Source: a virus. Taken from it: a DNA stretch of 39,261 nucleotides. This document shows positions 10,164-30,976 of this stretch, in pieces (the first letter of the stretch is position 1; the number at the start of each line of letters is the position of its first letter). The DNA lies in the IMG/VR virus record IMGVR_UViG_3300022670_000245, positions 1 through 39,261 of that record; one strand, written 5' to 3'. The notes beneath the pieces are model-generated. The model had not been told where the DNA came from. It saw only the letters and a program-made list of their open reading frames with translations, and made no database searches. Made by a program: the position numbers and the translations under genes.

Positions 10164-10315
10164 AAATTACAATGTGCAATTGGTATTTAAACAATGGGTT
10201 TACTTTTGGTTTTTATAAAAATTCCTATACTCTTTCTACCGGAATTGAAACAGGTTATGCCGTTAGTCTTGGGTGGTGGATTTTAGATTTTACCGTACTT
10301 CGTAAAAATAGATAA
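10160..10315 (+). CDS. Possible small ORF (51 aa)
   Basis: ATGA overlap upstream, TAATG overlap downstream. MKITMCNWYLNNGFTFGFYKNSY... Confidence 0.3.
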   Translation: MKITMCNWYLNNGFTFGFYKNSYTLSTGIETGYAVSLGWWILDFTVLRKNR

Positions 10316-13487: not shown

Positions 13488-15667
13488 TGGCCGAGGAACT
13501 TTTAATAAACGATGTTAAGATTGAACTACCACAAAGGATAGTAGCAAGGACATTGCAGATAAATGATATCGGGGAGGCAGAGGACAGACAAGCCAATTAC
13601 TCAAACAATATAAAGATACCGCCCACCAAAAATAATATCAAGGCTTTTGAAATGCTGGGAATATCCGGCAACACGACAAGGTTTCCATATGAGGACATGG
13701 ACATTAAATATACAGTTGATGGAATCGAACTGATACAAGGAGGCAAGGGGATAATAAGAAGCACAAGGACATTTTACTCCCTTGTGATATATGATGGGAA
13801 TGTTTCAATGACTGATATTCTGGGCAACAAGGAATTGGGAACTTTGGACTGGTCGGCCCACAATCATACATTAACAGAAAGTATTTTCACAAGTTCGTTT
13901 TCTAAAACATCCGGATATATCTATGGTCTTGGAAGGTTCTTTGAGGGGGATTTAGCTTTTTCAACTGCGTTTTCCATAGACGTTACTTCCCCTAGTTTTT
14001 ATATCCACACCCTTATTGATATGATATTCAACCAAGAGGGATGGACGGTATCCGGTGCGTTCTTTTCGGATGTCGATTTTAAGAGCAGAACAACAACTAT
14101 GAACAACGGTTTTGAGCGAATCCTTATCGAGGTGTTGACGCAAAAATATTCACGAAACAATTCAGGCGACCCATTAGTGGACGACATATTGCCAATTGAA
14201 TTTGACAAGACCTATTTTCTGGACACCTACAACGCCGTGACACTAAAGACCCATAGGGCAAACTTTGCAGGAAGCCTTGACCTTCAGGAAGGGGTGAACC
14301 CAAGGGCGGTAGTATACATAAATGGGGTGTTCGCCAGGTCAACACCAATAGACAATCCAGCATCTTTTGACGTGGATATTGAGGTGTTCGTAGATTCTGG
14401 CGATGAAATAAAAACAGGGCTTATAATAACAGGGGAGGACATAAGCGGAACCCCAAAGATAAAGTTCCAGACAAATTTTACCACTAAGATTTCGGAGAAC
14501 GACATATCCATAGATATTGATTTTTCCTTATTGGCGGGAGAAATGAAGCGGATTGATTTCGTAAAGGACATCATGCAGCGTTTTGGGCTTATCTTTAGGA
14601 AAGTAAGGAACAAAAATGAATTTGAGTTCATACAGATAAAATCACTTTTACCGGATAGGGCAGGGGCAGAAAACTGGAGCGATAAATATTCTAATTTTGT
14701 AGAGGAAAAATACAAACCAAACTATGCCAAAACAAATATCGCAAAGTATATCTACGATGATAACGACACTAGTACGGAACAAACATTTGCCGATGGTGAA
14801 TTCCTCATAGACAATGTAAATATAAGAGAGGAAACAACATTGTTCACTTCCATTTTTAAAGCATCCGAGCTTGTGGACTCTCAATATTACGGGATAAAAC
14901 ATTGGAACTTAGAGGAAGGGATTATAGTCACAAACAATGACGGCATGAGATTGTTTAGGGCGAACAAAGTTTCGGACACTATAAAATATAAGTTCAAACT
15001 CGACTCCGGTGGCGGGGTAGATTTCACGGGAACAGTTCCCAAGTTGCAATTTTTGAGCTATCAATTTGAAATATCGGCACATTACTTGGAGTTCAAATCC
15101 ATGTTGGACGATTTTAAAATGACCTCTTTATTGTTGAACCTGTCAATTGTGGACATATATGACATGGACTTTTTCAGGCTTAAGTATTTCGACCAATTGG
15201 GAGCATATTACTATCTTAATAAAGTAGTCAATTTTAAGAAGAAGAAGAAAACAAGGGTAGAGCTTATAAAGGTGGGGAAGGATGTTGTGGACGCATTGGC
15301 CATGGTCGGCACATATGCGGGAAGCTCTGTTTATACTTCTTTGTTGGGTAAACTTGGGGCAGGGTCTATGGTCGGCACATATGCCGGAAGCACTACATAT
15401 TCAAGTACCCTTGGCCTAGACGCAATAACATCATTTAGTATGTCAACAATAGGGGATACAGAAGCGAACGTTTGTGGGCTTGGGCTTGGGTCTACCAGAT
15501 TTCACGACGGCACATTGGCACTTCCGGTTATAAATGATACTATATTCATAGATGCGTTAGGGGCTACCCCGTTCGCAGGGGGCGACCAGTTTTATAAGTC
15601 ATCTGCATCTACGCATATAAAAGTAAATAACAGCGGACTTGTGACCCAAGAAGGCACATGTCCATAA
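13487..15667 (+). CDS. Large tail-tip/baseplate-like structural protein (726 aa)
   Basis: Size and position. The C-terminus has a 22-aa tandem duplication: MVGTYAGSSVYTSLLG / MVGTYAGSTTYSSTLG. Confidence 0.7.
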   Translation: MAEELLINDVKIELPQRIVARTLQINDIGEAEDRQANYSNNIKIPPTKNNIKAFEMLGISGNTTRFPYEDMDIKYTVDGIELIQGGKGIIRSTRTFYSLVIYDGNVSMTDILGNKELGTLDWSAHNHTLTESIFTSSFSKTSGYIYGLGRFFEGDLAFSTAFSIDVTSPSFYIHTLIDMIFNQEGWTVSGAFFSDVDFKSRTTTMNNGFERILIEVLTQKYSRNNSGDPLVDDILPIEFDKTYFLDTYNAVTLKTHRANFAGSLDLQEGVNPRAVVYINGVFARSTPIDNPASFDVDIEVFVDSGDEIKTGLIITGEDISGTPKIKFQTNFTTKISENDISIDIDFSLLAGEMKRIDFVKDIMQRFGLIFRKVRNKNEFEFIQIKSLLPDRAGAENWSDKYSNFVEEKYKPNYAKTNIAKYIYDDNDTSTEQTFADGEFLIDNVNIREETTLFTSIFKASELVDSQYYGIKHWNLEEGIIVTNNDGMRLFRANKVSDTIKYKFKLDSGGGVDFTGTVPKLQFLSYQFEISAHYLEFKSMLDDFKMTSLLLNLSIVDIYDMDFFRLKYFDQLGAYYYLNKVVNFKKKKKTRVELIKVGKDVVDALAMVGTYAGSSVYTSLLGKLGAGSMVGTYAGSTTYSSTLGLDAITSFSMSTIGDTEANVCGLGLGSTRFHDGTLALPVINDTIFIDALGATPFAGGDQFYKSSASTHIKVNNSGLVTQEGTCP
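15302..15433 (+). repeat. Two tandem 66-bp units inside the 726-aa gene
   Basis: atggtcggcacatatgcgggaagc at 15302 and atggtcggcacatatgccggaagc at 15368 match 23/24. The rest of the units has diverged. Confidence 0.7.
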
Positions 15668-15679
15668 ATAATAAAAAAA

Positions 15680-16111
15680 ATGAGCAAATCTAATTTACAG
15701 GAAACGGCATATTTGAAATTAATATTTCAAAACGTAGCAATGGCCAACATAGGGGATGCGGCCGGAATTCAGCCTAGTGCCGTGGCCGGAAGTTTATTCA
15801 TAGCTTTGTACAGCGCAGACCCAGGGGAAACGGATGTGGGAACCGAATTGACGTACACGGGATACGCAAGGGTAGCAGTGGCAAGAAGCGTAGTTGGGTT
15901 TACGGTTAGCGGAAACGAGGCTAGTAACGCAGCGCAAGTGTTGTTTCCGTTGAATAGCGGGTCAACGCAAACCGCTAATTTTTTTGCAGTAAGAACAGCG
16001 TCTAGCGGAGGTGATTTAGTGGGGTCGGGAGTGGTGTCTCCGTCCTTGACCGTAGATAACGGGGATACCCCAAAATATGAACCAGGAGATTTAACAGCAA
16101 CAGAGGACTAA
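15680..16111 (+). CDS. Hypothetical virion protein (143 aa)
   Basis: Track ORF. ...LFIALYSADPGETDVGTELTYTGYARVAVA... recalls a widespread phage structural family that I cannot name. Confidence 0.6.
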   Translation: MSKSNLQETAYLKLIFQNVAMANIGDAAGIQPSAVAGSLFIALYSADPGETDVGTELTYTGYARVAVARSVVGFTVSGNEASNAAQVLFPLNSGSTQTANFFAVRTASSGGDLVGSGVVSPSLTVDNGDTPKYEPGDLTATED

Positions 16112-16584
16112 TGAGACTATATTTATTATTGCTTATGTTTTCCATATCATGCCAAGGGCAGGGATATTTTAAAATACCGTTCGTCAACTCAAAGAACAAC
16201 GTACCTATTGTAATGATGAAGGTTAATGATGGTTCGGGTATATTCATTATAGATACGGGGGCCACCTACAGCATAATAAATTCAAACTCTGCCAATAAAT
16301 ATGGTTTTAAGATAAAAGGATTTTATCGACATATTGGAGGGATAGGCGCAGAGAAAGTCTATTTGAGAAATACGGAAAACCTAAAGATATGGATAAGGGG
16401 CATTCCAATAAATGTAAGATTCAGGGCGATGAACCTTGACAAATTACAAGCAAGAGCCGACATAGTAGGGATATTGGGGTCGGATTGGATATTAAAAAAC
16501 AAGGTTATAATAGACTACGAGCGGAAAATCTTGTGGATAAAAATAAAGACCTATAAAAAAGCAAGGTCATGGCAGAAACGATAA
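16111..16584 (+). CDS. Retropepsin-like (clan AA) aspartic protease with N-terminal signal/lipoprotein-like peptide
   Basis: IFIIDTGATYSIIN (DTGA at 16252-16263) plus VGILGSDWILKNKVIIDY match bacterial retropepsin-like proteases. The N-terminus is MRLYLLLLMFSISCQG|QG. Confidence 0.8.
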   Translation: MRLYLLLLMFSISCQGQGYFKIPFVNSKNNVPIVMMKVNDGSGIFIIDTGATYSIINSNSANKYGFKIKGFYRHIGGIGAEKVYLRNTENLKIWIRGIPINVRFRAMNLDKLQARADIVGILGSDWILKNKVIIDYERKILWIKIKTYKKARSWQKR

Positions 16585-19040
16585 TCATAGCGGAACTGGA
16601 TATCAATGTGGAGGGTCTTTTGGCAGATGCCCAGAACACAAAGAAGGTATTGAACCAACTTAAAAAAGCAAACAAAGAATTAAAGGACGCCAATAAGGAA
16701 ACCACTAAGGAGTTTGTAAAAAATGAGGTAGCCATTAAAAGATTGTCCACAAAATACAACGAGCAAAAAAATGTCCTTGTTGCCCTTAATGCAAGGAACG
16801 CAGAGTTTATTTCATTAGAAAAATCCCTTACGATAGAGATAAACAGAAATGTCGTATCGATTACAGAGGCTAGAAAGAACAACAAGGCACTTTTAAAAAT
16901 AAGGAACGAACTTAATCTACAGACAAAGGCCGGAAGACAAGCGTTGACCCAAGTAAACAAAAAATTAGACGAGAACAATAAATTTATAAAGGACAATTCG
17001 GATGCTCTTTCCAAGCAGAAAATAAATATAGGAAATTACCAGAGCGCATTGGGTGGGCTTAATCCTACGTTGTCAAGAAACATAGGTCTATTGGTACAGG
17101 CCAAAGCAGCGTTAACTTCGCAAGCTGCTGCAATGAGAGCAACCAGTACTGCCACAACGAAAGGCGCAAAAGCGTTAAATGTGTTCAAAATAGCTCTTAT
17201 AAGCACAGGAATAGGGGCTATTGTAGTTGCATTGGGGGCATTGATAGCAGCATTTTCAAGCACCCAACAGGGAGTGGATGCAATAAACAGGGCGTTAGCA
17301 CCGTTAAAAGGGGCTTTTCAGGGTATTATAGGGGTCATTCAAGACATTTCATTGAATGTTTTCGGGCAATTAGGGGATAGATTTACCGTAGTTTCGGGTT
17401 TAATCTTACAAGGAATAGACCTTATCAGGCTTGGATGGAACAAATTGTCAGGAGATATCGAAGAAAGCATTGAGATTCAGGAGCGAATGATAAAAAGGTC
17501 TGAAGAAATGGCCGATGCACAAGTTAGATTAAATGAAAAGTCAGCGGCACTAGGAGACATATTCAAAGGGGCCGGGGAGCAAATTGCCGCCGCTGCAAAA
17601 GCACAACAACAAATAGTAGAGCTTGGTATACAAATAGAAACGCAAGAGGCCAATCTTATATTGACAAGGGAAATAGCGGCAGAGCAGATAAAACGACAAC
17701 AAATACTTGCCAACGACAGAACATTATCGGCACAAGAGAACAATGCCGCCGCAGAAGAAGGAATCAGGGTAGGCAGGGAACTGGCCGCACAGGTAAAGGA
17801 TTTAATAAACCTAGAGATAACACGGGAAGAACTAAGACAGTCCCAAAACGATAGCGGACGGGCTGATTTAAAAGCTCTCAATGAAATAAAGGTAAAAGGT
17901 ATCGAGGCCGACAAACAAGCCGCCGCAACGGAGCTTAAGTTTTTAACGGCAAGGGCTGTGCTTGTAAAAGAACAAAGGGCGGCCACCAAAAAGGCGCAAG
18001 AGGAAACAAAAAAAGAAAGGGAAAAAGAACTAGAGGCAACAAAGGATTTTGAGCAACAAAAAATAGACCTTCAAAACGAGATTGACCTAGCCAACGCCGA
18101 GTCGGATAAAGAAAAAGAAGTCCTGGCAGCAGAACAGCAACTCGAAAAAGATTTGTTGGAGCTTGAAGAAATACAAATGACCGAGGACAGGAAAAACGAA
18201 CTAAAGGAACTGATAGAGACAAACCATAAAATAGCATTACAAGAAATCACAGACAAATTTGACGAAGAGGCCGAGACAAAAGAAAAGTTAGCACAGGAAA
18301 ATGCCATAAAGGAAAGACAAAAAGCGAATGTAGCAGAAAACAGAGCGGCCGTACAACAAGAGAGAGCAAAAGCAAGAATAGTACAAGCAGGGATTAACAT
18401 ATTAAAAGGCTTATTGGGAGAGTCGTTATTTGCAAGAATATCCGCTATAGCAATACAAGCGTTGACAGATATCGCCCTTGTCAAAATATCGACAGCATCC
18501 GCACAACAAAGGAACATTGCACAGGCAACGGCAACAGTCCCTCCGCCTTTTAATGTCCCATTCATAGCTACGGCTGCTGCCCAGAACATAGGATTGGGAA
18601 TAAAATCAAAATTAGCACAGGGCCGTATATTACAAGCAGCTGCCATAAGTGCAGTCAGCAGCGCATTCTATGAAGGCGGACGAGTACCCACCGGAACGGG
18701 CGGGAGGATTTCGGGCAGCAACATACCCACGCAAAGAGGGGGCGATAATATACTTGCCACCGTCAAAAGCGGGGAGGTCATATTAAACAACGACCAACAG
18801 GCAAGGGCGGGAGGCTCTGCCTTTTTCAAATCAATAGGTGTCCCAGGATTCCAAGGCGGTGGAGTAACGGGCATAAACACCAATGCCCCGGCCATAGCAT
18901 CCGCACAACAATTGAACTTTGAATCACTTGGGGAGGTTATAGCTGAAAACATAAACGATATTAAAATAGTGGCCATTGTCGATGAAATTAGCGAAGAACA
19001 AGCTATACAGGCCGAGATAGTTGACGGGGCAAATATATGA
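16569..19040 (+). CDS. Tape measure protein (823 aa)
   Basis: Long K/E/A/Q-rich coiled-coil stretches, hydrophobic segments (ALISTGIGAIVVALGALIAAF) and a Gly-rich C-terminus (SGEVILNNDQ...GVPGFQGGG). Confidence 0.8.
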   Translation: MAETIIIAELDINVEGLLADAQNTKKVLNQLKKANKELKDANKETTKEFVKNEVAIKRLSTKYNEQKNVLVALNARNAEFISLEKSLTIEINRNVVSITEARKNNKALLKIRNELNLQTKAGRQALTQVNKKLDENNKFIKDNSDALSKQKINIGNYQSALGGLNPTLSRNIGLLVQAKAALTSQAAAMRATSTATTKGAKALNVFKIALISTGIGAIVVALGALIAAFSSTQQGVDAINRALAPLKGAFQGIIGVIQDISLNVFGQLGDRFTVVSGLILQGIDLIRLGWNKLSGDIEESIEIQERMIKRSEEMADAQVRLNEKSAALGDIFKGAGEQIAAAAKAQQQIVELGIQIETQEANLILTREIAAEQIKRQQILANDRTLSAQENNAAAEEGIRVGRELAAQVKDLINLEITREELRQSQNDSGRADLKALNEIKVKGIEADKQAAATELKFLTARAVLVKEQRAATKKAQEETKKEREKELEATKDFEQQKIDLQNEIDLANAESDKEKEVLAAEQQLEKDLLELEEIQMTEDRKNELKELIETNHKIALQEITDKFDEEAETKEKLAQENAIKERQKANVAENRAAVQQERAKARIVQAGINILKGLLGESLFARISAIAIQALTDIALVKISTASAQQRNIAQATATVPPPFNVPFIATAAAQNIGLGIKSKLAQGRILQAAAISAVSSAFYEGGRVPTGTGGRISGSNIPTQRGGDNILATVKSGEVILNNDQQARAGGSAFFKSIGVPGFQGGGVTGINTNAPAIASAQQLNFESLGEVIAENINDIKIVAIVDEISEEQAIQAEIVDGANI

Positions 19041-19276
19041 CAAAAGCCAAAACAATATTGAAAGCATGGAAGGAAGTCGTAAAGGGCAATACGACAGACG
19101 AACATAGAAGAAGGTCGGAGATATGTTCCAAGTGTCCAAAGGCCGTTCATTCTACAATGTTGAATTTAGTAAAGGACGAATTAAAGGAAATAAAAGGGTT
19201 CAAGTGTTTGGATTGTGGATGCCCTTTAAGTGCAAAAATAAGAAGTGAAGATGTTTGTTATAAATGGAAAAAGTGA
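19037..19276 (+). CDS. Small zinc-finger protein (79 aa)
   Basis: CSKCP...CLDCGCP. ATGA overlap with the tape measure stop. Confidence 0.6.
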   Translation: MTKAKTILKAWKEVVKGNTTDEHRRRSEICSKCPKAVHSTMLNLVKDELKEIKGFKCLDCGCPLSAKIRSEDVCYKWKK

Positions 19277-19503
19277 ATAGATACGAACTGATAAAGGATT
19301 TAGAAAACGACCCCAAGTTCTTTAACTTGATAAAGAAAGGGATTATATCTCTATCCCTGTTGGCTAGAAAATGTTATTATGAAAAGTATTTGCAAGAGCT
19401 TGAAACGAACGGGAAACGAATGGCCGTATCAAAGGCCGCTGATGAATATAACATTAGCGAGCGAAGCGTTTACTATGCTATAGAATACATGGAAGAATCT
19501 TAA
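19264..19503 (+). CDS. Small HTH DNA-binding protein (79 aa)
   Basis: AVSKAADEYNISERSVYYAIEYM is a helix-turn-helix-like segment. Confidence 0.55.
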   Translation: MEKVNRYELIKDLENDPKFFNLIKKGIISLSLLARKCYYEKYLQELETNGKRMAVSKAADEYNISERSVYYAIEYMEES

Positions 19504-19646
19504 ATATCTTTGACATAAACAATAGCGCACACATAAAACATTGAGAAAAGAATAATAAAAACAATATTATCTGTGTCAATGTAAAAAACAAGATTTATTA
19601 AAGCTCCTAATAAATTAAGCAACCAAAGCAAGTCATTTTTTTTCAT
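19500..19646 (-). CDS. Possible small hydrophobic protein (48 aa), antisense orientation in the late region
   Basis: Hand translation: MKKNDLLWLLNLLGALINLVFYIDTDNIVFIILFSMFYVCAIVYVKDI. Its stop overlaps the stop of the convergent HTH gene. It fills an otherwise non-coding 245-nt gap. Confidence 0.35.
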   Translation of the reverse strand: MKKNDLLWLLNLLGALINLVFYIDTDNIVFIILFSMFYVCAIVYVKDI

Positions 19647-19748
19647 ATAATTAGGTAATTATTATACCTAAAGATACATCTTTTTGAAGAAACCGCTTCA
19701 ACAATTATCCGCTATTTATCAATAATATTGTTCTATCTATTCAGGATT

Positions 19749-20816
19749 ATGAGCAATACTTTAAATCTAATTGGTTCAGTTGGCAGAAATGCCGAGATAT
19801 CTCTAAAATCTATTATTGAACTAGTAGGTATGTCCGACAAAACAAAGCCTTTAGAGGTTTTTGTTCATTCCCCTGGGGGAGAGGTTTTTGAAGGAAAAGC
19901 AATCTACAAATTTTTTAAGGAACTAGGCAAAACCCAACAGGTCAATATGCACTCTTTGGGAATGGTCGCCTCAATAGCGTCTATTTTCTTCTTGGCCGGA
20001 ACAGAGAGAACAGGTCATGAGACAGACGATGTTTTAATACACTTGCCAAAAGGAGGGGTTATTGGAACCGCCGAAGATTTAGAAAAATCAGCAAGGGAAT
20101 TAAGGGACATGGAAGATGAACTTGCAGAAATTTATGCAGTCGAAACATCTTTTACAAAACAAGAAGCATTGGACTTGATGAAAAATGATGAAATGGTCAA
20201 TGTCGATTTATTAAAAGAAAAAGGATTTTTCACCGAAGTAAAAGAATTTAAAGCAGTAGCAACATTTAACAAATATAAAATGGGTACAGAAGCAGTTACA
20301 AAAAAAGAGGTTCAAAGTCTTTTTGAAAAGTTCGAGAATAAAATGAAGGGATTTTTTAATAAGAACGAGCCGGAAAACAAGGTGGTAAAGGACGCCACTG
20401 GGGTAAATATAGATTTTGCCGATTTGAAAAAAGACGAGGAGGTCTTGGTAGGGGCAGAGGCCACAATAGACAACAAAAAGGCAAATGGGGAATTTACCAT
20501 GCCCGATGGAAACAAATGGACATTTGTCAATGGAAAATTAGATACCATCTTGAAAGAAGAAACCGACCTTGAAAAATTACAGGCCGAAAACTCTACTTTA
20601 AAGGACGAACTACAAACAGCCGCCGTAAGTCTACAGGAAAAAACGGACGAGCTAGCTACCAAGGAAACAATGATGGCGACCTTACAAGATGATTTCACAA
20701 CTTTTAAGGGAGAGATTACAAGCAAGTTTTCTTTTGATGGGAAAACAAACCGTAATGGAGCCGAGCATCAAAATATGAACGAACAAGGGGCGAAACGAAC
20801 CCCAATTAAAAAATAA
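19749..20816 (+). CDS. ClpP-like (S14) prohead protease fused to a coiled-coil scaffold-like C-terminal half
   Basis: VFVHSPGGEVFEG, GMVASIASIFFLAG (catalytic Ser context) and LIHLP (His). The C-terminal 170 aa are K/E-rich. First ATG 19749 used (the track start 19728 is TTG). Confidence 0.8.
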   Translation: MSNTLNLIGSVGRNAEISLKSIIELVGMSDKTKPLEVFVHSPGGEVFEGKAIYKFFKELGKTQQVNMHSLGMVASIASIFFLAGTERTGHETDDVLIHLPKGGVIGTAEDLEKSARELRDMEDELAEIYAVETSFTKQEALDLMKNDEMVNVDLLKEKGFFTEVKEFKAVATFNKYKMGTEAVTKKEVQSLFEKFENKMKGFFNKNEPENKVVKDATGVNIDFADLKKDEEVLVGAEATIDNKKANGEFTMPDGNKWTFVNGKLDTILKEETDLEKLQAENSTLKDELQTAAVSLQEKTDELATKETMMATLQDDFTTFKGEITSKFSFDGKTNRNGAEHQNMNEQGAKRTPIKK

Positions 20817-20822
20817 TTAAAG

Positions 20823-21881
20823 ATGGCAACAAAAATTGACGTATCGGCATTAACGCTGAACACAGAAGAAGCACAATTAATCTCTGAACTGGTAGTCGAA
20901 AAAGTATTCGTACAGGGGGAACTAGACCAAATACATGACATTCAAACAGGAATACAGCACCAAAAGCAAATAGTATTCGTTAACAACTTGGATGTAGGGG
21001 GTGAAGCATTAACGGGATGTACCCCCGCAGAACAGGATGGGCTAGTATTGACCGAAAAAGTTTGGACGCCGCAACTAATTGCAGGGCGTTTTACCCATTG
21101 TGCCGCTGACCTTGACCAATTGTTAAAATTGTTTAGAAAAGCACAACGGGCGAATCCTGATTTCTTTGATAGAATTGATTCAGAAGAACTAGGATTGTTG
21201 ATGTTGAAAGTTATAGATGCCTTAAAGGTTTCTGTTTCAGCAAAAGTATGGCTTTCAGACACGGCCGCAGCGGTACAGCCTGGAGGTAACTTTACAATTG
21301 CAGGATTTAATGCCGGATTATGGAATCAATTTGACGGCCTTTGGAAACAAATTTTTGCTATTTCAGCGGCTGATTTACCACGTTTTATTATTACGGAAAA
21401 TGCGGGTGTAACTTTTGTATTGCAAGAATTAGCGGCAGGAGCTTCCTTGACAATTTTACAAAGTATGTATGAAGGTGCAGACTCCAGGTTATTAGGGGAT
21501 GCAGACGCACAATATTTGGTAACACGTTCCATTTGGGACAATTATCTTGCGCTTACCGAAACTAAAGAATTCAACGGAGGTATTACAGCCCGTTTGGACA
21601 ACGGACAGGTTACAATGAACTTTAGAGGAATTCCAATCAGGATGATGAACGAATGGGATAGAACAATAAGAAAGTTCCAAGATGATTTAACGGTTCATTT
21701 TAGACCCCACAGAGCCGTTTTAACGACTCCCATGAATATTCCTGTCGGAACATTGAGCGAAGATGATTTAAGTAAACTGGAGTCTTTCTACGACCAAACG
21801 TTGAAGACTAACTTTATAGATTACGAATATTTCTTGGACGCTAAGTTCGGGGAGGATTACATGGCAAGTGTAGCCTATTAA
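20823..21881 (+). CDS. Major capsid protein (HK97-fold type)
   Basis: 352 aa directly after the protease/scaffold gene. Overall composition and length are typical. Assignment is by position plus resemblance. Confidence 0.75.
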   Translation: MATKIDVSALTLNTEEAQLISELVVEKVFVQGELDQIHDIQTGIQHQKQIVFVNNLDVGGEALTGCTPAEQDGLVLTEKVWTPQLIAGRFTHCAADLDQLLKLFRKAQRANPDFFDRIDSEELGLLMLKVIDALKVSVSAKVWLSDTAAAVQPGGNFTIAGFNAGLWNQFDGLWKQIFAISAADLPRFIITENAGVTFVLQELAAGASLTILQSMYEGADSRLLGDADAQYLVTRSIWDNYLALTETKEFNGGITARLDNGQVTMNFRGIPIRMMNEWDRTIRKFQDDLTVHFRPHRAVLTTPMNIPVGTLSEDDLSKLESFYDQTLKTNFIDYEYFLDAKFGEDYMASVAY

Positions 21882-21901
21882 TCTTTTAAAAATTAGACAT
21901 T

Positions 21902-22495
21902 ATGGCTATAAATTGCGAAGAAAAATTAACAGCAGATATAGAAAAGGATTGTGACAATAAGCCAAAGGGCGGGATTGAGGTCAATGTCGTAATACTTAAC
22001 TTTGAAGATGTGGACAAAGCTACATCGACACTGGACGGCGTAAACGATTTGATACTTACCAATCTTTCCACCTTTTCAGGAACCGCAGGGTTTTTTATAG
22101 AAGGGGTAAAACAGGTAAACGGAGCATCTTTTGAACTGATAAAGAAAGAAGAGAGCTTTGATATGTGGAAACATATGTTTGCAGGGGTGTTATTGGCCCC
22201 TAGTGCAGCAAACAAAAAACGCTTGGACGAAATCGCCAGCGGTGGACGGTATGTAGTTGTTGTAGAAAAGATATGGAAGGGCGACAGTCAGGCCGATGCC
22301 TTTGAGGTATTGGGGTTTGATTCCGGACTTGTTATATCAACTGCAGTATGGAATACCAAGGAATCCGATGGGGTGATAAAGTTTGAACTTGCTTCTGAAG
22401 ATGGTTTTGAAGAGCCAAAAATGACGCTCAACAATTTAGAAACGAATTTCGCAACTACAAAAATTGCGTTCGATGCTAAATATGCGACTCCTTAA
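21902..22495 (+). CDS. Hypothetical virion protein (197 aa; possibly major tail/tube protein)
   Basis: Track ORF after the capsid gene. Beta-rich. The functional guess is weak. Confidence 0.5.
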   Translation: MAINCEEKLTADIEKDCDNKPKGGIEVNVVILNFEDVDKATSTLDGVNDLILTNLSTFSGTAGFFIEGVKQVNGASFELIKKEESFDMWKHMFAGVLLAPSAANKKRLDEIASGGRYVVVVEKIWKGDSQADAFEVLGFDSGLVISTAVWNTKESDGVIKFELASEDGFEEPKMTLNNLETNFATTKIAFDAKYATP

Positions 22496-25702: not shown

Positions 25703-27724
25703 ATGAAAAAGTTTTTATCAATATTGATATTTTTCTTGTGCATTGTTGCGCACGGACAGATAACACCTGTTGTTGACGGGGTAAGATACATTCCATTAAC
25801 AACTGTCCAAATACTCGCCATTGTTTCACCTTCACAGGGCGAGACACAATACAGTAGCGACACAAAGACAAAATTCGAGTTCAACGGCACTATTTGGGTC
25901 GATACAGGAATAGCTGCGGCTGGGGATGTTACCGCAGCGGCAAACCTTGGGGATAATTTCCTCATTAGGGGCGACGGGGCAACCAAAGGCGTTCAAAATT
26001 CCGGCATTTCCATAAGCGATTTGGACGACATTACGGGCGCAAATGAAATAAACATTAAAACACTGCCCATTTTTCAGAGATTCGTGTCTTTATTGACTAC
26101 GGGAGTAGAACAAGGCGGGTTTCTTTCGCCAAATACAGATACCACTAAATTTGATATTTCCGACGGCAATGGCATTGTTATAGACCAATTTACAGACCCA
26201 GATAATCCAACATATACAGAGGTCAGTTGGTCTGGATTGACAGCTATTGTACCAACTTTTATAGCAACACAGGATATTTCACATATTGGCATAAATAGTG
26301 CGGGAACAGTAGTGCAACAAATTGCAGGGTTTACAGAGGAACAACACAGGAGCATTATTGTATTGGGGAGATTGGTGCATGCGGATAATGTAAATGTTTC
26401 CAGTGCTACAGATTTGTCCCATGTAATCAATCTTTATTTATCGGAGGATTTGGTCAGTGCGATTGGTAACATAAATGCCTTTGGGAACAACTTTAATGCT
26501 GCAAGCACAAATTTGACCATTAGAAAAGAGGCCGGGAAATCTTTTAGCCCGAGCGACAACAGAGTTACAAATCCTTTAGACCCAAACAATAAAACATCTG
26601 GAGTCCTTAATCCAGCAACATTTATATATGTGCATAACGATGGCAGTGGGGGAGCTACATCCAATCCGGGAGAAACAAACATAGACCCCGGCTTTTTTGA
26701 TGATGGAAGCGGAACCCTGCAAACAGTCGGGAACAATCAATGGACAAATAAACTTATTTATTTTTTCCCTAGCTCTGGAAATGTAATAGTTAGGTATGGG
26801 GAAGAGCTATTCAACTCTTTAATTTCAGCGGAAAACGCAGTATCAAAAATAACTCCAGCTGATGTAGAAGGTCTTACTAATGAGTTTGTTCGTACTGTTT
26901 TAACGGTAAAGGGCAATGAAACCGATTTATCAAGTGCAAACACAGCGTTTGCCAATACTGGTAAGTTTGGTTTAGACGGGGGCGTTATAGGAGGGGGCGG
27001 AGGTGCCATACAAGACCTACAGGATACTTATAACAATTCCGTAACGCCGGAAATAGTAACAGATGCAACAAGGGGAGCTGTATCTTTTAAAAGAGGAACA
27101 ACTTTGGACACGGATGATGTTTTTGAGGTGTTGAACGGAGCAGATGCACAAGCTTTTGGTGTTAAGGGCAACGGAAACATATTTACACTGGGAACGGTTG
27201 ATGGTGTAGATATAGCGAACGATGCAATTACATCCATAGGCGCAGGGAGAACAAATGTAATAGACATATCCCATATTTACGGACAGTTACAAGCGGATTT
27301 TGATACGGACGGCGCACCTCCTGCCGATGAATTTGTAGTTATTACGGACGCAATAGACGAAATGAAGTTTATTGTTCCATTGGGGGCTGTAGGCGTTGAT
27401 TTAACGGTTGCCACAAGCGTAACCCATATCCCTGTCCTTGACGCAATAACGATAACAAGGATAGAGGTTGATTTATTGGTGGCCGCTACAGGCGCAACGG
27501 CAACATTCGATATTAATTTAGACGACGGTACACCAGCGTCTATTTTAAGTACAAAATTAACCCTTGATACAGGGGAACGATTTTCTAGTACCGCAGCTAC
27601 ACCGCCTGTTATTTCAGACGCAACAATACCAGCGGATTCATTCTTAACATTTGATGTTGATGTGATTGGTTCGACTATAGCCGGGTCTGACGGAACTATA
27701 ACGATTTATTACACAATAGACTAA
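25703..27724 (+). CDS. Large fibre/adhesin-like protein with predicted signal peptide (673 aa)
   Basis: The N-terminus is MKKFLSILIFFLCIVAHG|QITP. It is followed by PLTTVQILAIVSPSQGETQYSSDTKTKFEFNGTIWV (a motif common in Bacteroidota surface and fibre proteins) and GDNFLIRGDGATKGVQNSGISISD. Confidence 0.7.
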   Translation: MKKFLSILIFFLCIVAHGQITPVVDGVRYIPLTTVQILAIVSPSQGETQYSSDTKTKFEFNGTIWVDTGIAAAGDVTAAANLGDNFLIRGDGATKGVQNSGISISDLDDITGANEINIKTLPIFQRFVSLLTTGVEQGGFLSPNTDTTKFDISDGNGIVIDQFTDPDNPTYTEVSWSGLTAIVPTFIATQDISHIGINSAGTVVQQIAGFTEEQHRSIIVLGRLVHADNVNVSSATDLSHVINLYLSEDLVSAIGNINAFGNNFNAASTNLTIRKEAGKSFSPSDNRVTNPLDPNNKTSGVLNPATFIYVHNDGSGGATSNPGETNIDPGFFDDGSGTLQTVGNNQWTNKLIYFFPSSGNVIVRYGEELFNSLISAENAVSKITPADVEGLTNEFVRTVLTVKGNETDLSSANTAFANTGKFGLDGGVIGGGGGAIQDLQDTYNNSVTPEIVTDATRGAVSFKRGTTLDTDDVFEVLNGADAQAFGVKGNGNIFTLGTVDGVDIANDAITSIGAGRTNVIDISHIYGQLQADFDTDGAPPADEFVVITDAIDEMKFIVPLGAVGVDLTVATSVTHIPVLDAITITRIEVDLLVAATGATATFDINLDDGTPASILSTKLTLDTGERFSSTAATPPVISDATIPADSFLTFDVDVIGSTIAGSDGTITIYYTID

Positions 27725-28251
27725 TGAAGTATTTATTCGTTTTATTTTTTGTTTGCCAATTTGCCCAAGGGCAGATAGTAGATAGGTTTATAAGGTTTGT
27801 TGCAAGTCCGCTTTATGATTTTAACAATGCGGCAACACCTGCCCCAAACGAGGTTAACGGGGTAGTCGGGTGGACAGTAGGAGTGCTTACGTCAGTTTCA
27901 TCTACATCCACAGACCCATTTGAAGGGAGTTTTAGGATAGAAATGTTGCACACAGGTGGAACGGATGAATTTTCTAGCCTATTTGCGGAACTAAATTTGG
28001 AGAATGGGGCTACATACCAAATAGATGTACATACCCAAGAGCTTGTGAGCACTAATTTTCAAGTATCATTGCGTACCGATGCAGGGTGGACAGTTGCAGA
28101 TACAAAAAACACGCCTTCGGGTGGATGGCAACTAATAACCGTCACGGCGACTACAAATACAACAACGCCACGGCTAAGATTTAGCACGACCGCTTCTGGC
28201 GACGGGGGTGATAAATTAGGGATTGACAATATAGTTATCACAAAATTATGA
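27724..28251 (+). CDS. Secreted beta-sandwich/CBM-like protein (175 aa)
   Basis: N-terminus MKYLFVLFFVCQFAQG|QIVD. The C-terminus ...RLRFSTTASGDGGDKLGIDNIVITKL is typical of carbohydrate-binding-module endings. TAATG overlap upstream. Confidence 0.65.
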   Translation: MKYLFVLFFVCQFAQGQIVDRFIRFVASPLYDFNNAATPAPNEVNGVVGWTVGVLTSVSSTSTDPFEGSFRIEMLHTGGTDEFSSLFAELNLENGATYQIDVHTQELVSTNFQVSLRTDAGWTVADTKNTPSGGWQLITVTATTNTTTPRLRFSTTASGDGGDKLGIDNIVITKL

Positions 28252-29762
28252 GAAAACTATTTTATATATTAACTATTTGCTTCGCATTGGTAAGTTTTAA
28301 GCCCAGCATGGACTTGGAGAATTATGTAATGGTAAATACCATAGTTTTAACAGACGCTGATATTTTAGCCTTTCCTGGGGCAGTAGGCCATGGAAAAAAT
28401 GCAACAGGCGGCAGGGCCGGCACAACTATTTATGTAACTAATTTAAATAATTCCGGCTCTGGAAGCTTTAGGGAAGCGGTGACTACGGCCGGCGCTAGAA
28501 TAGTTCTATTTAAAACAGGCGGAACAATAACTTTAACAACCGACATAACAATTACAACCGACGATTTAACCATAGCGGGAGAAACTTCGGCCGGTGATGG
28601 TATTGCCATCTACGGAAAAACCGTAAAATTTAGTAACTGTGATAACATTATAGTAAAAAACATAAGGTTTAGGGGCGGCGATACTGCCACTGATGATTCG
28701 GTCAGATTGGTTCAAACAAGTTCGACCGTAGAAATGAATGGATTTATTTTTGACCATTGTTCTATTAGTTGGGGTGCCGATGAAAATTTCGGTTCTGGCG
28801 GTGCTCGTGGGGATGCAGAAATTACAAATGTAACTGTGTCTAATTCAATAATCTCCGAAACATTTAATATTCTAGGGGTATTAATGTTTCATGAAACCAC
28901 GAATTATAGTTATATAAGAAATCTTTTTGCACACAACACAGATAGGAATATTCACGCATCTACAGAAACAAGTTCTTTTGAGTTTATCAACAATTTTGTT
29001 TATGGCTTTAGATTCGGAACACATCCAACTGTTTTGAATGACCATGATATAATCGGAAATGTATATGTTGATGGTCACGATACTTCTACGGAAGTTATAA
29101 AACTTCAAGGATGCATTAATAATTGTGACCCTGACATAACCTCTGGTGCCGGCACTAATTGGTTTGTTGATGATAATACGTTCGATGGCGCAGATGCAGA
29201 TGCGGTCGGGGGCAGGTACAACGACCAGGCAGAAAGCGGAACACCTGTTTTAAGTTCAGGGTATAGCGCATTAGCGAATGCGGTAGTACAAGATAGCGTT
29301 TTAGCGTTTTCAGGAGCCAGAGCAAGGATGGAGGGTGTTGATGCTTTGGACGCACACATGAGGGCAGACGCTTTGAATGGAAGCGCAGGAGGGTATGTTA
29401 CTTTAGAGTCCCAGACTACAGGATTACCAACTTTATCGGCTGGAACGGCTTATACAGATACCGACAACGACGGCCTGAGTGATGCCTATGAAACAGATAA
29501 TGGCGGGAGTGTAACAGCATCAACTAGGCCGTCAACAGCAATTATAAGCAACGGGACAATAATAGACCAATCAGGGGTTACAAGTTTTGCAACACTTGGA
29601 TACACTCATTTGGATATATTTTTAGCTGATCTGGCCAACGATTGGGATGGTTTTGAAGTTACAAGCTCCGGCCCAGTATCGTCTAACATAATACGAGCGC
29701 ACAAAATAAGACTAGGAACAGGTGGCGGGGGAGCATTTTTAGGAACTAATAAAATAAATTGA
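28248..29762 (+). CDS. Pectate-lyase-like (PL1-type right-handed beta-helix) polysaccharide lyase with N-terminal hydrophobic signal/anchor and a Ca-binding TSP3-like repeat
   Basis: AFPGAVGHGKNATGGRAGTTIYVTNLNNSGSGSFREAV...LTIAGETSAGDGIAI...IFDHCSISWGADEN...NLFAHNTDRN matches the PL1 pattern from memory. DTDNDGLSDAYE at 29457-29492. Confidence 0.8.
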   Translation: MRKLFYILTICFALVSFKPSMDLENYVMVNTIVLTDADILAFPGAVGHGKNATGGRAGTTIYVTNLNNSGSGSFREAVTTAGARIVLFKTGGTITLTTDITITTDDLTIAGETSAGDGIAIYGKTVKFSNCDNIIVKNIRFRGGDTATDDSVRLVQTSSTVEMNGFIFDHCSISWGADENFGSGGARGDAEITNVTVSNSIISETFNILGVLMFHETTNYSYIRNLFAHNTDRNIHASTETSSFEFINNFVYGFRFGTHPTVLNDHDIIGNVYVDGHDTSTEVIKLQGCINNCDPDITSGAGTNWFVDDNTFDGADADAVGGRYNDQAESGTPVLSSGYSALANAVVQDSVLAFSGARARMEGVDALDAHMRADALNGSAGGYVTLESQTTGLPTLSAGTAYTDTDNDGLSDAYETDNGGSVTASTRPSTAIISNGTIIDQSGVTSFATLGYTHLDIFLADLANDWDGFEVTSSGPVSSNIIRAHKIRLGTGGGGAFLGTNKIN

Positions 29763-30751: not shown

Positions 30752-30976
30752 ATGTTAAAAACGAATACATTTATAAACAACAATTGGAAATGGATTTTAG
30801 GTCTGTTCGCTTATGTTGTGGTCGGGTATTCAGGATATAAGGGAATGCAGACCGATGTAGAAACGAACACTAGAAGACTGCAAACGTATATTAACGAAAT
30901 AAAAGAGCTTAAAAATGACGTGAACGGCCTTAAAATAGATATTGCTATACTAACAGCTAATCAAGATTGCAAATGA
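30752..30976 (+). CDS. N-terminally anchored coiled-coil protein (74 aa; i-spanin-like architecture)
   Basis: WKWILGLFAYVVVGYSGY followed by heptad-like RRLQTYINEIKELKNDVNGLKIDIAIL. Confidence 0.5.
   Translation: MLKTNTFINNNWKWILGLFAYVVVGYSGYKGMQTDVETNTRRLQTYINEIKELKNDVNGLKIDIAILTANQDCK

What the first reader, a model, noticed from the sequence alone, without database searches (positions are those of the whole stretch)
16111..16584. Signal-peptide-bearing retropepsin-like aspartic protease in the slot just upstream of the tape measure gene
The 157-aa ORF has the canonical hydrophobic-hydrophobic-D-T-G-A motif (IFIIDTGAT, 16252-16263) and the second retropepsin-like element (VGILGSDWILKNKVIIDY). 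It begins MRLYLLLLMFSISCQG|QG, which could be a lipoprotein Cys14 or an SPase-I site followed by Gln. It is joined by TAATG to the upstream virion gene and overlaps the tape measure start by 16 nt. In siphoviruses this position is usually held by the tail assembly chaperones. Aspartic proteases are not a standard phage morphogenesis component, since prohead proteases are Ser or herpesvirus-like, and a ClpP-like one is already present at 19749. It may be an exported effector (moron) embedded in the tail operon, or a new tail-maturation or tape-measure-processing protease.
Basis: partly seen in the sequence, partly recalled or inferred. Interest (0 to 1): 0.65.

Follow-up and report, generated by a model that had tools for sequence, protein, structure and literature searches.

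The report
Exported retropepsin-like protease in phage tail operon
A phage of Bacteroidota carries, wedged between a small tail-fibre gene and its tape-measure gene, a real HIV-protease-like aspartic protease with an export signal; it belongs to a large, uncharacterised family found in many Bacteroidota phages and most likely acts in the host cell envelope rather than in building the tail.

Summary
ORF 16111-16584 (+, 157 aa) is a real gene for a single-domain retropepsin-like (clan AA) protease: Pfam Asp_protease_2, RVP_2 and RVP above gathering score, Asp48/Gly50/Gly120/Gly123 invariant in relatives, an IGGIG flap, and an AlphaFold model (pLDDT 89) matching DDI2, EIAV protease and Rickettsia APRc. 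The TAATG junction and the 16-nt overlap with the tape-measure gene are exact.

The N-terminal export signal is a family trait: about 83% of 132 single-domain relatives have a lipobox or a Bacteroidota 'Q-rule' SPase-I site. All 12 genomic contexts examined are phage: phi46:1-like, crAss-like, myophages and a Bacteroides siphophage. Ten of the 12 lie in virion/tail modules, usually beside fibre-like genes. The Gp80-like, protease, tape-measure triplet recurs in three diverged relatives, yet the protease is the fastest-evolving gene (33-41% identity against 50-74% for the fibre). Cellulophaga phage phi46:1, with homologous tail genes, lacks it.

So it is an accessory, exported enzyme, not a tail chaperone substitute or tape-measure protease. 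It is also not a classical moron, having no promoter or terminator of its own. The best guess, which is inferred, is cleavage of envelope proteins for superinfection exclusion or receptor destruction. 'Aspartyl protease' is already an annotation in crAss-like genomes, so it is a new member of a known kind with an unknown role.

The parts
16111..16584 (+). CDS of the 157-aa single-domain retropepsin-like (clan AA) aspartic protease precursor
   Evidence: ORF; Pfam Asp_protease_2/RVP_2/RVP above gathering score; 765 homologues; AF2 pLDDT 89.2 with retropepsin fold
16111..16158 (+). Export signal (aa 1-16: MRLYLLLLMFSISCQG). Cleavage is either before Cys14 (SPase II, lipoprotein) or before Gln15/Gln17 (SPase I, Bacteroidota Q-rule)
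   Evidence: n-region Arg2 plus an 11-residue hydrophobic core. FSISC fits the PROSITE-type lipobox pattern, but Cys14 is one residue earlier than that rule allows. Cys14 aligns with the family's lipobox Cys. The three closest syntenic relatives have ...S|Q sites. Q-rule: PMC5837995
16252..16263 (+). Catalytic D48-T-G-A motif (preceded by hydrophobic IFII)
   Evidence: Sequence; D48 and G50 invariant in 36-sequence alignment; D[TS]G[AS] in 131/132 single-domain relatives
16333..16347 (+). Flap-tip motif I75-G-G-I-G79
   Evidence: G77 at least 90% conserved, family consensus GIGG; lies in the beta-hairpin E67-75/E83-89 of the model; identity with the HIV-1 protease flap IGGIGG is from established knowledge
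16468..16485 (+). G120-I-L-G-S-D125, the C-terminal hydrophobic-hydrophobic-Gly element of retropepsins (equivalent to Ddi1 IGLD)
   Evidence: G120 and G123 invariant; aligned to Ddi1 'liGlDmL' in the PDB profile search
15680..16111 (+). Upstream partner gene: 143-aa Gp80-like small tail-fibre protein; its stop overlaps the protease ATG (TAATG at 16109-16113)
   Evidence: Pfam PF23140 Gp80 6.9e-20 and phrog_240. The same gene directly precedes the protease in L006, L007 and L013. GP4 fibre I context: Zheng et al. 2023 as cited in PMC11445570
16569..19040 (+). Downstream 823-aa tape-measure-like gene, whose start lies 16 nt inside the protease CDS
   Evidence: tblastn to annotated tape measure proteins of Cellulophaga phage phi46:1 (virion protein by MS/MS per its GenBank note) and Flavobacterium phage 1/32. 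The overlap is conserved in L007 and L013
13487..15667 (+). 726-aa structural protein (homologue of phi46:1 gp20) with a C-terminal phrog_21885 domain. It bounds the Gp80-like plus protease insertion on the left
   Evidence: tblastn 28% identity to phi46:1 gp20; phrog_21885 at aa 646-723. The same PHROG is the gene just upstream of the protease homologue in a myophage

Best explanation
The gene encodes a small retropepsin-like aspartic endopeptidase precursor. It is translated together with the late tail genes; the stop/start overlaps on both sides imply translational coupling. Its short N-terminal signal sends it through the Sec pathway. It is then either lipidated at Cys14 or cut by signal peptidase I to expose a Gln N-terminus, as is typical of Bacteroidota. 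With only one DTG per chain, the mature domain of about 14 kDa must form a homodimer to build a two-aspartate active site under two IGGIG flaps.

It therefore works in the periplasm, outer membrane or cell surface of the infected host, not in the cytoplasm where tails assemble. It is an accessory gene that is dispensable for this type of tail.

Its most likely job is to cut host envelope or surface proteins, or the proteins that an incoming phage ejects into the periplasm. That would stop further phage from adsorbing to or entering the infected cell and its debris. It would be an enzymatic counterpart of the receptor-blocking lipoproteins (T5 Llp, Cor) and of HK97 gp15, whose genes sit in the same kinds of positions.

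Shown: the gene, the fold, the motifs, conservation of the export signal, the synteny, the accessory distribution and the fast divergence. Inferred: actual export, dimerisation, catalytic activity, the substrate and the exclusion role.
For: Identity: Pfam hits above threshold; profile against PDB gives Ddi1 at 5.9e-10, then FIV protease and ApRick; AF2 pLDDT 89.2 with Foldseek probability 1.0 to DDI2, EIAV protease and APRc; D48, G50, G120 and G123 invariant; 131/132 relatives keep D[TS]G[AS].

Export: 108/132 single-domain relatives have a hydrophobic N-terminus; 54 have a strict lipobox, 22 have a Q-rule SPase-I site, and many of the rest have a relaxed lipobox. Every long-contig phage copy checked has a canonical lipobox. 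The Q-rule is specific to Bacteroidota (PMC5837995), and phages of P. gingivalis are known to encode Q-rule proteins of unknown function (PMC10367356).

Accessory nature: phi46:1 has homologues of the 726-aa protein and of the tape measure but has neither the Gp80-like gene nor the protease.

Linkage to receptor-binding or tail genes in unrelated phages: the Gp80-like, protease, tape-measure order in L006, L007 and L013; crAss-like phages, next to Peptidase_S74, fn3 and BACON fibre proteins and the muzzle protein, upstream of the Ring genes; myophages.

Fast divergence: the protease is 33-41% identical within the clade, against 50-74% for Gp80-like, 41% for the tape measure and 50-72% for other structural genes. 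This is the pattern expected for a protein that tracks host surface variation.

Precedents: HK97 gene 15 lies between the chaperone and tape-measure genes and encodes a membrane superinfection-exclusion protein (PMC3594210). T5 Llp is adjacent to the receptor-binding-protein gene, and exclusion lipoproteins lie downstream of gpJ (PMC9586334).

A candidate defence system in PADLOC (PDC-M08) has a small retropepsin-like component that matches at 1.2e-9.
Against: No experiment and no dedicated signal-peptide predictor were available. The signal is unusually short (13-16 residues), and one public gene call starts at Met9 and so lacks it.

No substrate is known for any member of the family.

The gene has no promoter of its own and is tightly coupled to the tape-measure gene in four diverged lineages. 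That is more integration than expected for a loosely attached accessory gene, and it means late expression, whereas T5 Llp is made early.

More distant phage relatives are apparently cytoplasmic or cytoplasm-facing: Bacteroides phage C3_41T2LP, and the Steigviridae copies with a TM anchor followed by KKEKR. The domain's role in phages is therefore not uniformly in the envelope.

The Gp80-like neighbour is well conserved, so the protease does not co-vary with it as T5 Llp does with pb5.

The PADLOC match is to an untested candidate system, and no partner component was found.
Confidence: 0.45

Rival explanations
1. Tail, fibre or tape-measure maturation protease. The enzyme would cut the tape measure protein or the Gp80-like fibre during or after tail assembly, and the hydrophobic N-terminus would not act as an export signal.
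For: Immediate adjacency and overlapping reading frames with the tape-measure gene and the fibre-like gene are conserved in four lineages at only about 35% protease identity. A signal-less homologue lies 1.8 kb downstream of the tape-measure gene in Bacteroides phage C3_41T2LP. The proteases that process tape measure proteins such as lambda gpH are unknown (established knowledge).
Against: An export signal or lipobox is conserved in about 83% of close relatives. phi46:1 has a homologous tape measure (a virion protein by MS/MS) without any such protease. The family also occurs in crAss-like podophages, which have no comparable tape measure, and at other positions in myophages. No PHROG tail or chaperone family matches it.
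Confidence: 0.1
2. Lysis or egress accessory. The exported protease would cut outer-membrane-to-peptidoglycan tethers or other envelope proteins at the end of infection, helping outer-membrane disruption in hosts whose phages lack recognisable spanins.
For: Late co-expression with virion genes is implied by the operon structure. The protein is a lipoprotein or otherwise exported. In one crAss-like lineage the gene is two genes upstream of a holin, and in another it is about 5 kb downstream of an Amidase_2 endolysin.
Against: In the window and its three syntenic relatives the gene sits in the tail operon. It is about 14 kb from the only lysis-like candidates (DUF5675 at 30967-31404 and the small ORFs before it). 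Most contexts show no lysis genes next to it. There is no spanin-like architecture.
Confidence: 0.15
3. Classical moron or lysogenic-conversion effector. The gene would be expressed from a prophage to change the host's surface or secrete a protease that benefits the lysogen.
For: Presence/absence polymorphism relative to phi46:1, which carries integrases. The product is exported. The position matches that of HK97 gene 15 (PMC3594210).
Against: There is no intergenic space for a promoter or terminator: a 1-nt overlap upstream and a 16-nt overlap downstream. No promoter-like or terminator-like site brackets the gene. GC is 0.357 against a genome value of 0.381, and GC3 is 0.418, within the range of its neighbours. 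No integrase was found among the window ORFs scanned, although not every ORF was scanned.
Confidence: 0.1
4. Catalytically silent use of the fold, for example as a fibre-assembly chaperone encoded just downstream of its fibre gene (like lambda Tfa or P2 G), or as a binding module.
For: Tail-fibre chaperone genes typically lie immediately downstream of the fibre gene (established knowledge). Rickettsia APRc is reported to moonlight as an immunoglobulin-binding protein and its protease role is disputed (PMC10414592).
Against: The catalytic Asp, the Thr/Ser-Gly, the flap and the GxxGxD element are under strict conservation while the rest of the protein diverges to about 35% identity. The export signal separates it from cytoplasmic fibre assembly.
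Confidence: 0.05

Closest known systems
Pfam PF13650 Asp_protease_2 / clan AA retropepsin-like proteases (retroviral proteases, Ddi1 RVP domain)
   Same: Single beta-barrel domain of about 100-130 residues with hydrophobic-hydrophobic-D-T-G-A, a Gly-rich flap (IGGIG, as in HIV-1 protease) and a C-terminal GxxGxD element. One catalytic Asp per chain implies an obligate homodimer. Scores are above the Pfam thresholds and the fold matches.
   Different: It is phage-encoded and free-standing, not part of a polyprotein or a UBL/UBA protein. It has a Sec signal or lipobox. It is only 14-23% identical to solved structures.
Rickettsia APRc (RC1339), a membrane-associated bacterial retropepsin
   Same: A bacterial-world retropepsin-like enzyme located in the envelope. 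It is among the top structural matches (5c9f and 5c9b, E about 1e-5) and was proposed to cut surface proteins (autotransporters).
   Different: APRc is a chromosomal gene of an obligate intracellular alphaproteobacterium, with an N-terminal multi-pass membrane region. Its physiological substrates are disputed (PMC10414592). Sequence similarity covers only the N-terminal half.
'Aspartyl protease' of phiCrAss001-type crAss-like phages (Steigviridae: Kolpuevirus, DAC15/DAC17, cr126_1, cr106_1) and of Bacteroides phage C3_41T2LP
   Same: The same domain family in Bacteroidota phages, already annotated as aspartyl protease. The DTGAS motif is conserved.
   Different: Those copies are 23-32% identical to the query proteins used. 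The Steigviridae copies lie in the replication module between dUTPase and DNA polymerase, and carry an N-terminal transmembrane anchor followed by a basic stretch, so they probably face the cytoplasm. The C3_41T2LP copy has no signal at all. None has a published function that I could find.
Superinfection-exclusion envelope proteins encoded next to tail genes: T5 Llp, Cor (T1/phi80/N15), HK97 gp15
   Same: Small exported, lipoprotein or membrane proteins whose genes sit beside the receptor-binding gene (Llp, Cor) or immediately upstream of the tape-measure gene (gp15). They are accessory and variable between related phages (PMC9586334, PMC3594210).
   Different: There is no sequence or fold relationship. 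Those proteins block a receptor or DNA entry stoichiometrically rather than enzymatically. gp15 is an independent transcription unit expressed from the prophage, and Llp is made early. The exclusion function is only hypothesised here.
PADLOC candidate defence system PDC-M08, component B
   Same: The best-scoring profile of all libraries for the catalytic core (E = 1.2e-9, aa 45-140 against 28-122 of 127). It is a small stand-alone retropepsin-like protein.
   Different: PDC-M08 is an untested candidate system with at least two components. None of the 13 neighbouring window proteins scanned matched any PDC-M08 model. The context here is a phage tail operon, not a defence island.

Membership tests
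Clan AA retropepsin-like aspartic protease (Pfam PF13650 Asp_protease_2; also PF08284 RVP_2, PF00077 RVP) | Profile score at or above the curated gathering threshold | tested here: met
   27.2 vs 24.3 (PF13650), 24.0 vs 20.3 (PF08284), 21.2 vs 20.7 (PF00077). PF13975 is below threshold at 24.9 vs 28.2
Clan AA retropepsin-like aspartic protease (Pfam PF13650 Asp_protease_2; also PF08284 RVP_2, PF00077 RVP) | Catalytic hydrophobic-hydrophobic-Asp-Thr/Ser-Gly-Ala/Ser motif, conserved in homologues | tested here: met
   IFIIDTGAT at aa 44-52. D48 and G50 are invariant in A1. 131/132 single-domain relatives keep the motif
Clan AA retropepsin-like aspartic protease (Pfam PF13650 Asp_protease_2; also PF08284 RVP_2, PF00077 RVP) | Gly-rich flap hairpin and C-terminal hydrophobic-hydrophobic-Gly (GxxGxD/N) element | tested here: met
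   IGGIG at aa 75-79 (G77 at least 90% conserved); GILGSD at aa 120-125 (G120 and G123 invariant)
Clan AA retropepsin-like aspartic protease (Pfam PF13650 Asp_protease_2; also PF08284 RVP_2, PF00077 RVP) | Retropepsin beta-barrel fold | tested here: met
   Predicted only. AF2 mean pLDDT 89.2, pTM 0.78. Foldseek PDB top hits are DDI2 4rgh, EIAV protease 1fmb and APRc 5c9f, all at probability 1.0
Clan AA retropepsin-like aspartic protease (Pfam PF13650 Asp_protease_2; also PF08284 RVP_2, PF00077 RVP) | Homodimer with a two-Asp active site; pepstatin-sensitive, Asp-dependent proteolysis | not testable with these tools
   Only single-chain prediction was available. Indirect support: cellular relatives carry 2 or 4 tandem copies (55 of the 187 retrieved relatives are longer than 200 aa)
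NCBIfam TIGR02281 (clan_AA_DTGA subfamily) | Score at or above the curated cut-off (57.95 bits) | tested here: not met
   20.4 bits, and only aa 34-69 align. It is not a member of this subfamily
Siphovirus tail assembly chaperone pair (G/GT type) | Two overlapping ORFs upstream of the tape-measure gene joined by a -1 slippery heptamer; similarity to chaperone families; cytoplasmic location | tested here: not met
   No chaperone PHROG or Pfam hit. The protease frame is open only from 16081, and no X-XXY-YYZ heptamer lies in 16081-16111 (reading). It has an export signal. The gene is absent from phi46:1, which has the homologous tape measure
Moron (independent transcription unit added to a phage operon) | Own promoter and terminator; composition different from neighbours | tested here: not met
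   1-nt and 16-nt overlaps with the neighbours. No bracketing promoter-like or terminator-like sites. GC 0.357 against a genome value of 0.381, and GC3 0.418, similar to neighbours. Caveat: the scan uses sigma-70 consensus, not Bacteroidota promoters. The nearest TAnnTTTG is at 15801, inside the upstream gene
Moron (independent transcription unit added to a phage operon) | Present in some and absent from other closely related genomes at the same position | tested here: met
   Absent, together with the Gp80-like gene, between gp20 and gp21 of phi46:1. Present in L006, L007 and L013
Bacterial lipoprotein (SPase II substrate) | Lipobox [LVI][ASTVI][GAS]C or the PROSITE PS00013-type pattern, with Cys at positions 15-35 and Lys/Arg within the first 7 residues | tested here: inconclusive
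   FSIS-C14 fits the relaxed PROSITE pattern, and Arg2 is present. However, position -3 is Ser rather than Leu/Val/Ile, and Cys14 is one residue too early. Cys14 aligns with the family's lipobox Cys. The three syntenic relatives instead have SPase-I ...S|Q sites
Receptor-blocking superinfection-exclusion lipoproteins (Llp/Cor type) | Gene adjacent to a receptor-binding or tail-fibre gene; exported small protein; confers exclusion | tested here: inconclusive
   Adjacency to fibre-like genes is met in the window and in 9 further contexts. Export is predicted. There is no homology to Llp or Cor, and the exclusion phenotype is not testable here
PADLOC candidate system PDC-M08 | Component B profile match plus a partner component in the neighbourhood | tested here: not met
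   Component B matches at 1.2e-9. No PDC-M08 model is hit by the 13 surrounding proteins scanned

The most novel reading that the evidence does not exclude
Bacteroidota phages, including crAss-like phages, carry a widespread and rapidly diversifying family of exported retropepsin-like proteases encoded beside their receptor-binding genes. These would act as receptor-destroying or entry-blocking enzymes: they would cleave the host surface receptor, or the proteins that a superinfecting phage ejects into the periplasm. This would be the first enzymatic, protease-based superinfection-exclusion mechanism in tailed phages, and a functional parallel to viral receptor-destroying enzymes.
Probability: 0.25. 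Interest if true: 0.8.

Novelty: new member of a known kind. Interest (0 to 1): 0.5.

Why it matters
Retropepsin-like proteases are textbook enzymes of retroviruses and eukaryotic Ddi1, but almost nothing is known about them in bacteria and nothing in phages. This work shows three things.
- A single-domain, export-signal-bearing subfamily is common in Bacteroidota phages. That includes the abundant gut crAss-like group and marine Flavobacteriia phages.
- It is repeatedly embedded in tail or fibre operons.
- It evolves faster than its neighbours.

If it cleaves host surface proteins or incoming phage proteins, it would be a new way for phages to control adsorption and superinfection, and a source of envelope-remodelling enzymes in gut and marine Bacteroidota. 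If it does something more mundane, it still deserves a proper family annotation, because most copies are currently labelled 'hypothetical'.

Tried and rejected
- DNA similarity of 14001-22000 to 50,697 phage records: no match.
- The word-indexed protein search with the single protein found only the protein itself. The exhaustive HMMER search was needed.
- The search for related loci with the 36-sequence alignment failed because no stretch was conserved enough. With a 6-sequence alignment it found no confirmed relatives in IMG/VR or in GTDB genomes. Absence from bacterial genomes is therefore only weakly tested, because the scan used narrow peptide patterns.
- PHROGs has no family for the protease.
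- A -1 frameshift fusion of the Gp80-like gene and the protease (G/GT-like) was considered, because the protease is in the -1 frame. It was rejected: the frame is open for only 10 codons upstream, there is no slippery heptamer, and an internal signal peptide would make no sense.
- A conventional chaperone pair elsewhere: none was detected by Pfam or PHROGs among the small ORFs.
- Moron hallmarks (promoter, terminator, GC): not found.
- PDC-M08 partner: not found.
- Literature searches for phage retropepsin or aspartyl proteases gave no functional study.
- The morphology of phi46:1 could not be verified, because the original paper is not held. 'Siphovirus' for this clade therefore rests on the tape-measure annotation only.
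Full report
**1. Observation**

- The DTGA codons are at 16252-16263.
- The upstream gene's TAA (16109-16111) shares a base with the ATG, giving TAATG.
- The 823-aa downstream ORF starts at 16569, 16 nt before the protease stop.

**2. Molecular identity**

Profile evidence:
- Pfam places the protein in clan AA, with Asp_protease_2 at 27.2 bits (gathering 24.3), RVP_2 at 24.0 (20.3) and RVP at 21.2 (20.7).
- An exhaustive HMMER search of 1.84 billion representatives found 765 relatives at E<=1e-3 and 48 at E<=1e-10.

Sequence features:
- In a 36-sequence alignment, Asp48, Gly50, Gly120 and Gly123 are invariant. Gly77 of the GIGG flap is at least 90% conserved.
- 131 of 132 single-domain relatives keep D[TS]G[AS].
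- The window protein's flap reads IGGIG, the same tip as HIV-1 protease (established knowledge).

Structural evidence:
- The family profile hits the Ddi1 RVP domain at 5.9e-10, then FIV protease and Rickettsia ApRick, among PDB sequences.
- An AlphaFold2 model has mean pLDDT 89.2. Foldseek matches DDI2, EIAV protease, APRc and HIV proteases at probability 1.0.

Oligomeric state: with one DTG per chain, the enzyme must be a homodimer. Cellular relatives with two or four tandem copies fit this. NCBIfam TIGR02281 is not reached (20.4 vs 57.95 bits).

**3. Export signal**

The N-terminus is MRLYLLLLMFSISCQGQGY. It has one basic residue, an 11-residue hydrophobic core and small residues before Cys14, Gln15 and Gln17.

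Across the family:
- Relatives align from residues 2-6 onward and show the same design.
- Of 132 single-domain relatives, 108 have a strongly hydrophobic N-terminus. Many of the other 24 are obviously truncated gene calls.
- 54 have a strict lipobox and 22 have an SPase-I-type site followed by Gln. Many of the remaining 35 have a relaxed lipobox.
- All copies on long phage contigs have canonical lipoboxes, such as LMISC|NK and LVTAC|YN.

For the window protein:
- Cys14 sits in the family's lipobox-Cys column.
- Its three syntenic relatives instead have CFS|QQ, GFS|QN and VNS|QI. This is the Bacteroidota 'Q-rule' (PMC5837995).
- The protein is therefore predicted to be exported, but whether it is a lipoprotein or a soluble periplasmic or secreted protein is open.
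- A public gene call uses Met9. The conserved TAATG coupling and the N-terminal homology favour Met1.

**4. What kind of phage, and is this a 'chaperone slot'?**

The window has a 144-bp terminal overlap and is probably a complete genome of about 39.1 kb. The gene order is: TerS, TerL, small genes, tail protein (415 aa), 108 aa, 375 aa, 726 aa, Gp80-like (143 aa), protease, tape-measure-like (823 aa), Zn-ribbon, HTH, a gap, ClpP protease, major capsid protein, further genes, portal, further genes, fibre, CBM, pectate-lyase-like.

The only cultured relative is Cellulophaga phage phi46:1. It has the same unusual order. However, its gp20 (homologue of the 726-aa protein, 28% identity) is followed after 31 nt by its tape measure gp21 (36% identity over the N-terminus). 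There is no Gp80-like gene and no protease.

The position is therefore not a conserved chaperone slot, and the protease is dispensable for that tail type. No G/GT-like pair was found anywhere in the window. No slippery site links the Gp80-like frame to the protease frame.

**5. Context in other genomes**

All 12 independent contexts examined are phage.

| Phage type | Loci | Genes around the protease |
|---|---|---|
| phi46:1-like (four contexts: the window plus three metagenomic relatives) | window; L006, L007, L013 | Gp80-like, then protease, then tape measure (L006 ends after the protease); TAATG junction in the window, L006 and L013; tape-measure start inside the protease 3' end |
| crAss-like (three lineages) | L008-L012, L020 | After Peptidase_S74, fn3 or large fibre-like proteins; before the CrAss_Ring_2/Ring_1 genes; in one lineage a BACON protein, and in another a small gene and a holin, lie between the protease and the Ring genes |
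| crAss-like | L018, L019 | After the muzzle protein |
| Myophage | L014, L015 | After a phrog_21885 gene; before the sheath gene |
| Myophage | L021 | Near a T4 gp13-like neck gene |
| Unassigned phage with a sheath gene nearby (more distant copy) | L016, L017 | Replication module, before DNA polymerase B |
| Steigviridae crAss-like (more distant copy) | Kolpuevirus, DAC15/17, cr126_1 | Replication module; annotated 'aspartyl protease [phiCrAss001]'; TM anchor followed by a basic stretch |

phrog_21885 is the same PHROG that matches the C-terminal domain of the window's 726-aa protein.

Separately from these contexts, Bacteroides phage C3_41T2LP has a signal-less copy 1.8 kb downstream of its tape-measure gene. 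A two-domain relative in an NCBI genome is chromosomal and lies next to a Peptidase_S41 gene. BFVD's best structural matches are phage proteins auto-named 'Retropepsin-like protein [CrAss-like virus]' and 'Aspartyl protease [uncultured phage cr111_1]'.

**6. Evolutionary behaviour**

Within the phi46:1-like clade the proteases are 33-41% identical pairwise. The adjacent Gp80-like proteins are 50-74% identical, the tape measure 41%, and other structural proteins 46-72%. The protease is the most diverged of 11 shared genes between the window and L013. The catalytic and structural glycine positions nevertheless stay fixed. This pattern suits a protein that interacts with variable host or competitor targets, although relaxed constraint cannot be excluded.

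**7. Moron test**

There is no intergenic space, and no promoter-like or terminator-like site brackets the gene. GC is 0.357 against 0.381 for the genome, with an unremarkable GC3. It is an accessory gene, but one integrated into the late tail operon. It is not an independent transcription unit like HK97 gene 15.

**8. Mechanism proposed**

Shown:
- a real, conserved gene for a retropepsin-fold protein with an intact catalytic apparatus
- a conserved export signal
- translational coupling to tail genes
- accessory distribution
- repeated linkage to fibre and tail genes in unrelated Bacteroidota phages
- rapid divergence

Inferred:
- Sec export, followed by lipidation or SPase-I cleavage that exposes Gln
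- homodimerisation
- endoproteolysis of envelope or periplasmic targets
- the biological role

The role I consider most likely is superinfection exclusion or receptor destruction, at about 0.3-0.4. It would work by cutting host surface proteins, or the proteins that an incoming phage ejects into the periplasm.

This rests on analogy with the genomic placement of T5 Llp and Cor next to receptor-binding genes (PMC9586334), and of HK97 gp15 just upstream of the tape-measure gene (PMC3594210). It also draws on the match to a small retropepsin-like component of the PADLOC candidate defence system PDC-M08 (1.2e-9), for which no partner was found.

Rivals are a lysis or egress aid (about 0.15), a tail, fibre or tape-measure maturation protease (about 0.1), a prophage-expressed conversion factor (about 0.1) and a non-catalytic role (about 0.05).

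**9. Novelty and score**

The protein is a bona fide member of a known family (PF13650). 'Aspartyl protease' is already an annotation in several Bacteroides and crAss-like phage genomes, so the kind is known.

What appears not to have been described is the exported, tail-operon-embedded subfamily, its breadth across Bacteroidota phages, and any function. I rate it a new member of a known kind, with moderate interest (0.5). The most novel reading still open is a protease-based exclusion or receptor-destroying system, at probability about 0.25. It would merit about 0.8 if true.

Noticed in passing
window 1-144 and 39118-39261: The first and last 144 bases are identical (direct terminal overlap), so the window is probably a complete circular or terminally redundant phage genome of about 39.1 kb.
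   Followed up: partly
window 19500-19727: This is the only sizeable non-coding gap between the tail operon and the ClpP/capsid operon. It holds a cluster of sigma-70-like promoter hits on both strands and a Bacteroidota-type TAnnTTTG at 19505. A minus-strand 48-aa ORF with two hydrophobic segments (19500-19646) has TTCAAA-16-TATAAT just upstream (19688-19661). It may be a small membrane protein gene transcribed against the flow.
   Followed up: no
window 19037-19503: Two 79-aa genes directly after the tape-measure gene. One is a CxxC...CxxC zinc-ribbon protein. The other is an HTH protein with weak similarity to a late transcriptional activator PHROG (phrog_836). They may regulate the downstream head operon.
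   Followed up: no
window 15422-15664 (aa 646-723 of the 726-aa protein); L015 249-674: The C-terminal domain of the 726-aa structural protein matches phrog_21885. The same PHROG occurs as a stand-alone 141-aa gene directly upstream of the protease homologue in a myophage. This is a second domain that travels with the protease.
   Followed up: partly
L013 1330-1776 and 9570-10001: A related phage carries two Gp80-like paralogues (46% identical to each other). Only the one upstream of the tape measure is followed by the protease. All Gp80-like proteins end in ...T-x-T-E-D.
   Followed up: partly
window 16111-16584 (aa 45-140): The best profile match in any library is PADLOC PDC-M08B (E = 1.2e-9), a component of an untested candidate anti-phage defence system. 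No partner component was found among the 13 neighbouring proteins scanned.
   Followed up: partly
L001 7863-8366; L024 4860-5363; L023 5965-6354: The 'aspartyl protease' genes of Steigviridae crAss-like phages (annotated after phiCrAss001) sit between dUTPase and DNA polymerase. They have an N-terminal TM helix followed by KKEKR, so they probably face the cytoplasm. Bacteroides phage C3_41T2LP has a signal-less copy 1.8 kb downstream of its tape-measure gene. The domain is therefore used in several compartments by Bacteroidota phages.
   Followed up: partly
window 27724-29762: A CBM_4_9-like 175-aa protein is followed by a 504-aa pectate-lyase-like protein (phrog_27797, 4e-43), downstream of a 673-aa tail-fibre-like protein. 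These are probably a virion-associated polysaccharide depolymerase module.
   Followed up: no
window 10164-10314: There is an unexplained 151-nt gap inside the otherwise gap-free tail operon, between the 147-aa and 156-aa genes (homologues of phi46:1 gp17 and gp18). In L013 the homology of the second gene extends upstream of its annotated start and overlaps the end of the first gene. This was not examined for a frameshift or an alternative start.
   Followed up: no
L018 10503-11081; L021 10192-10722: In other phages the protease homologue is followed by, or lies near, further predicted secreted-protein families: DUF192 in a crAss-like phage and a CAP/SCP domain protein in a myophage. This hints at small clusters of exported accessory proteins.
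   Followed up: no
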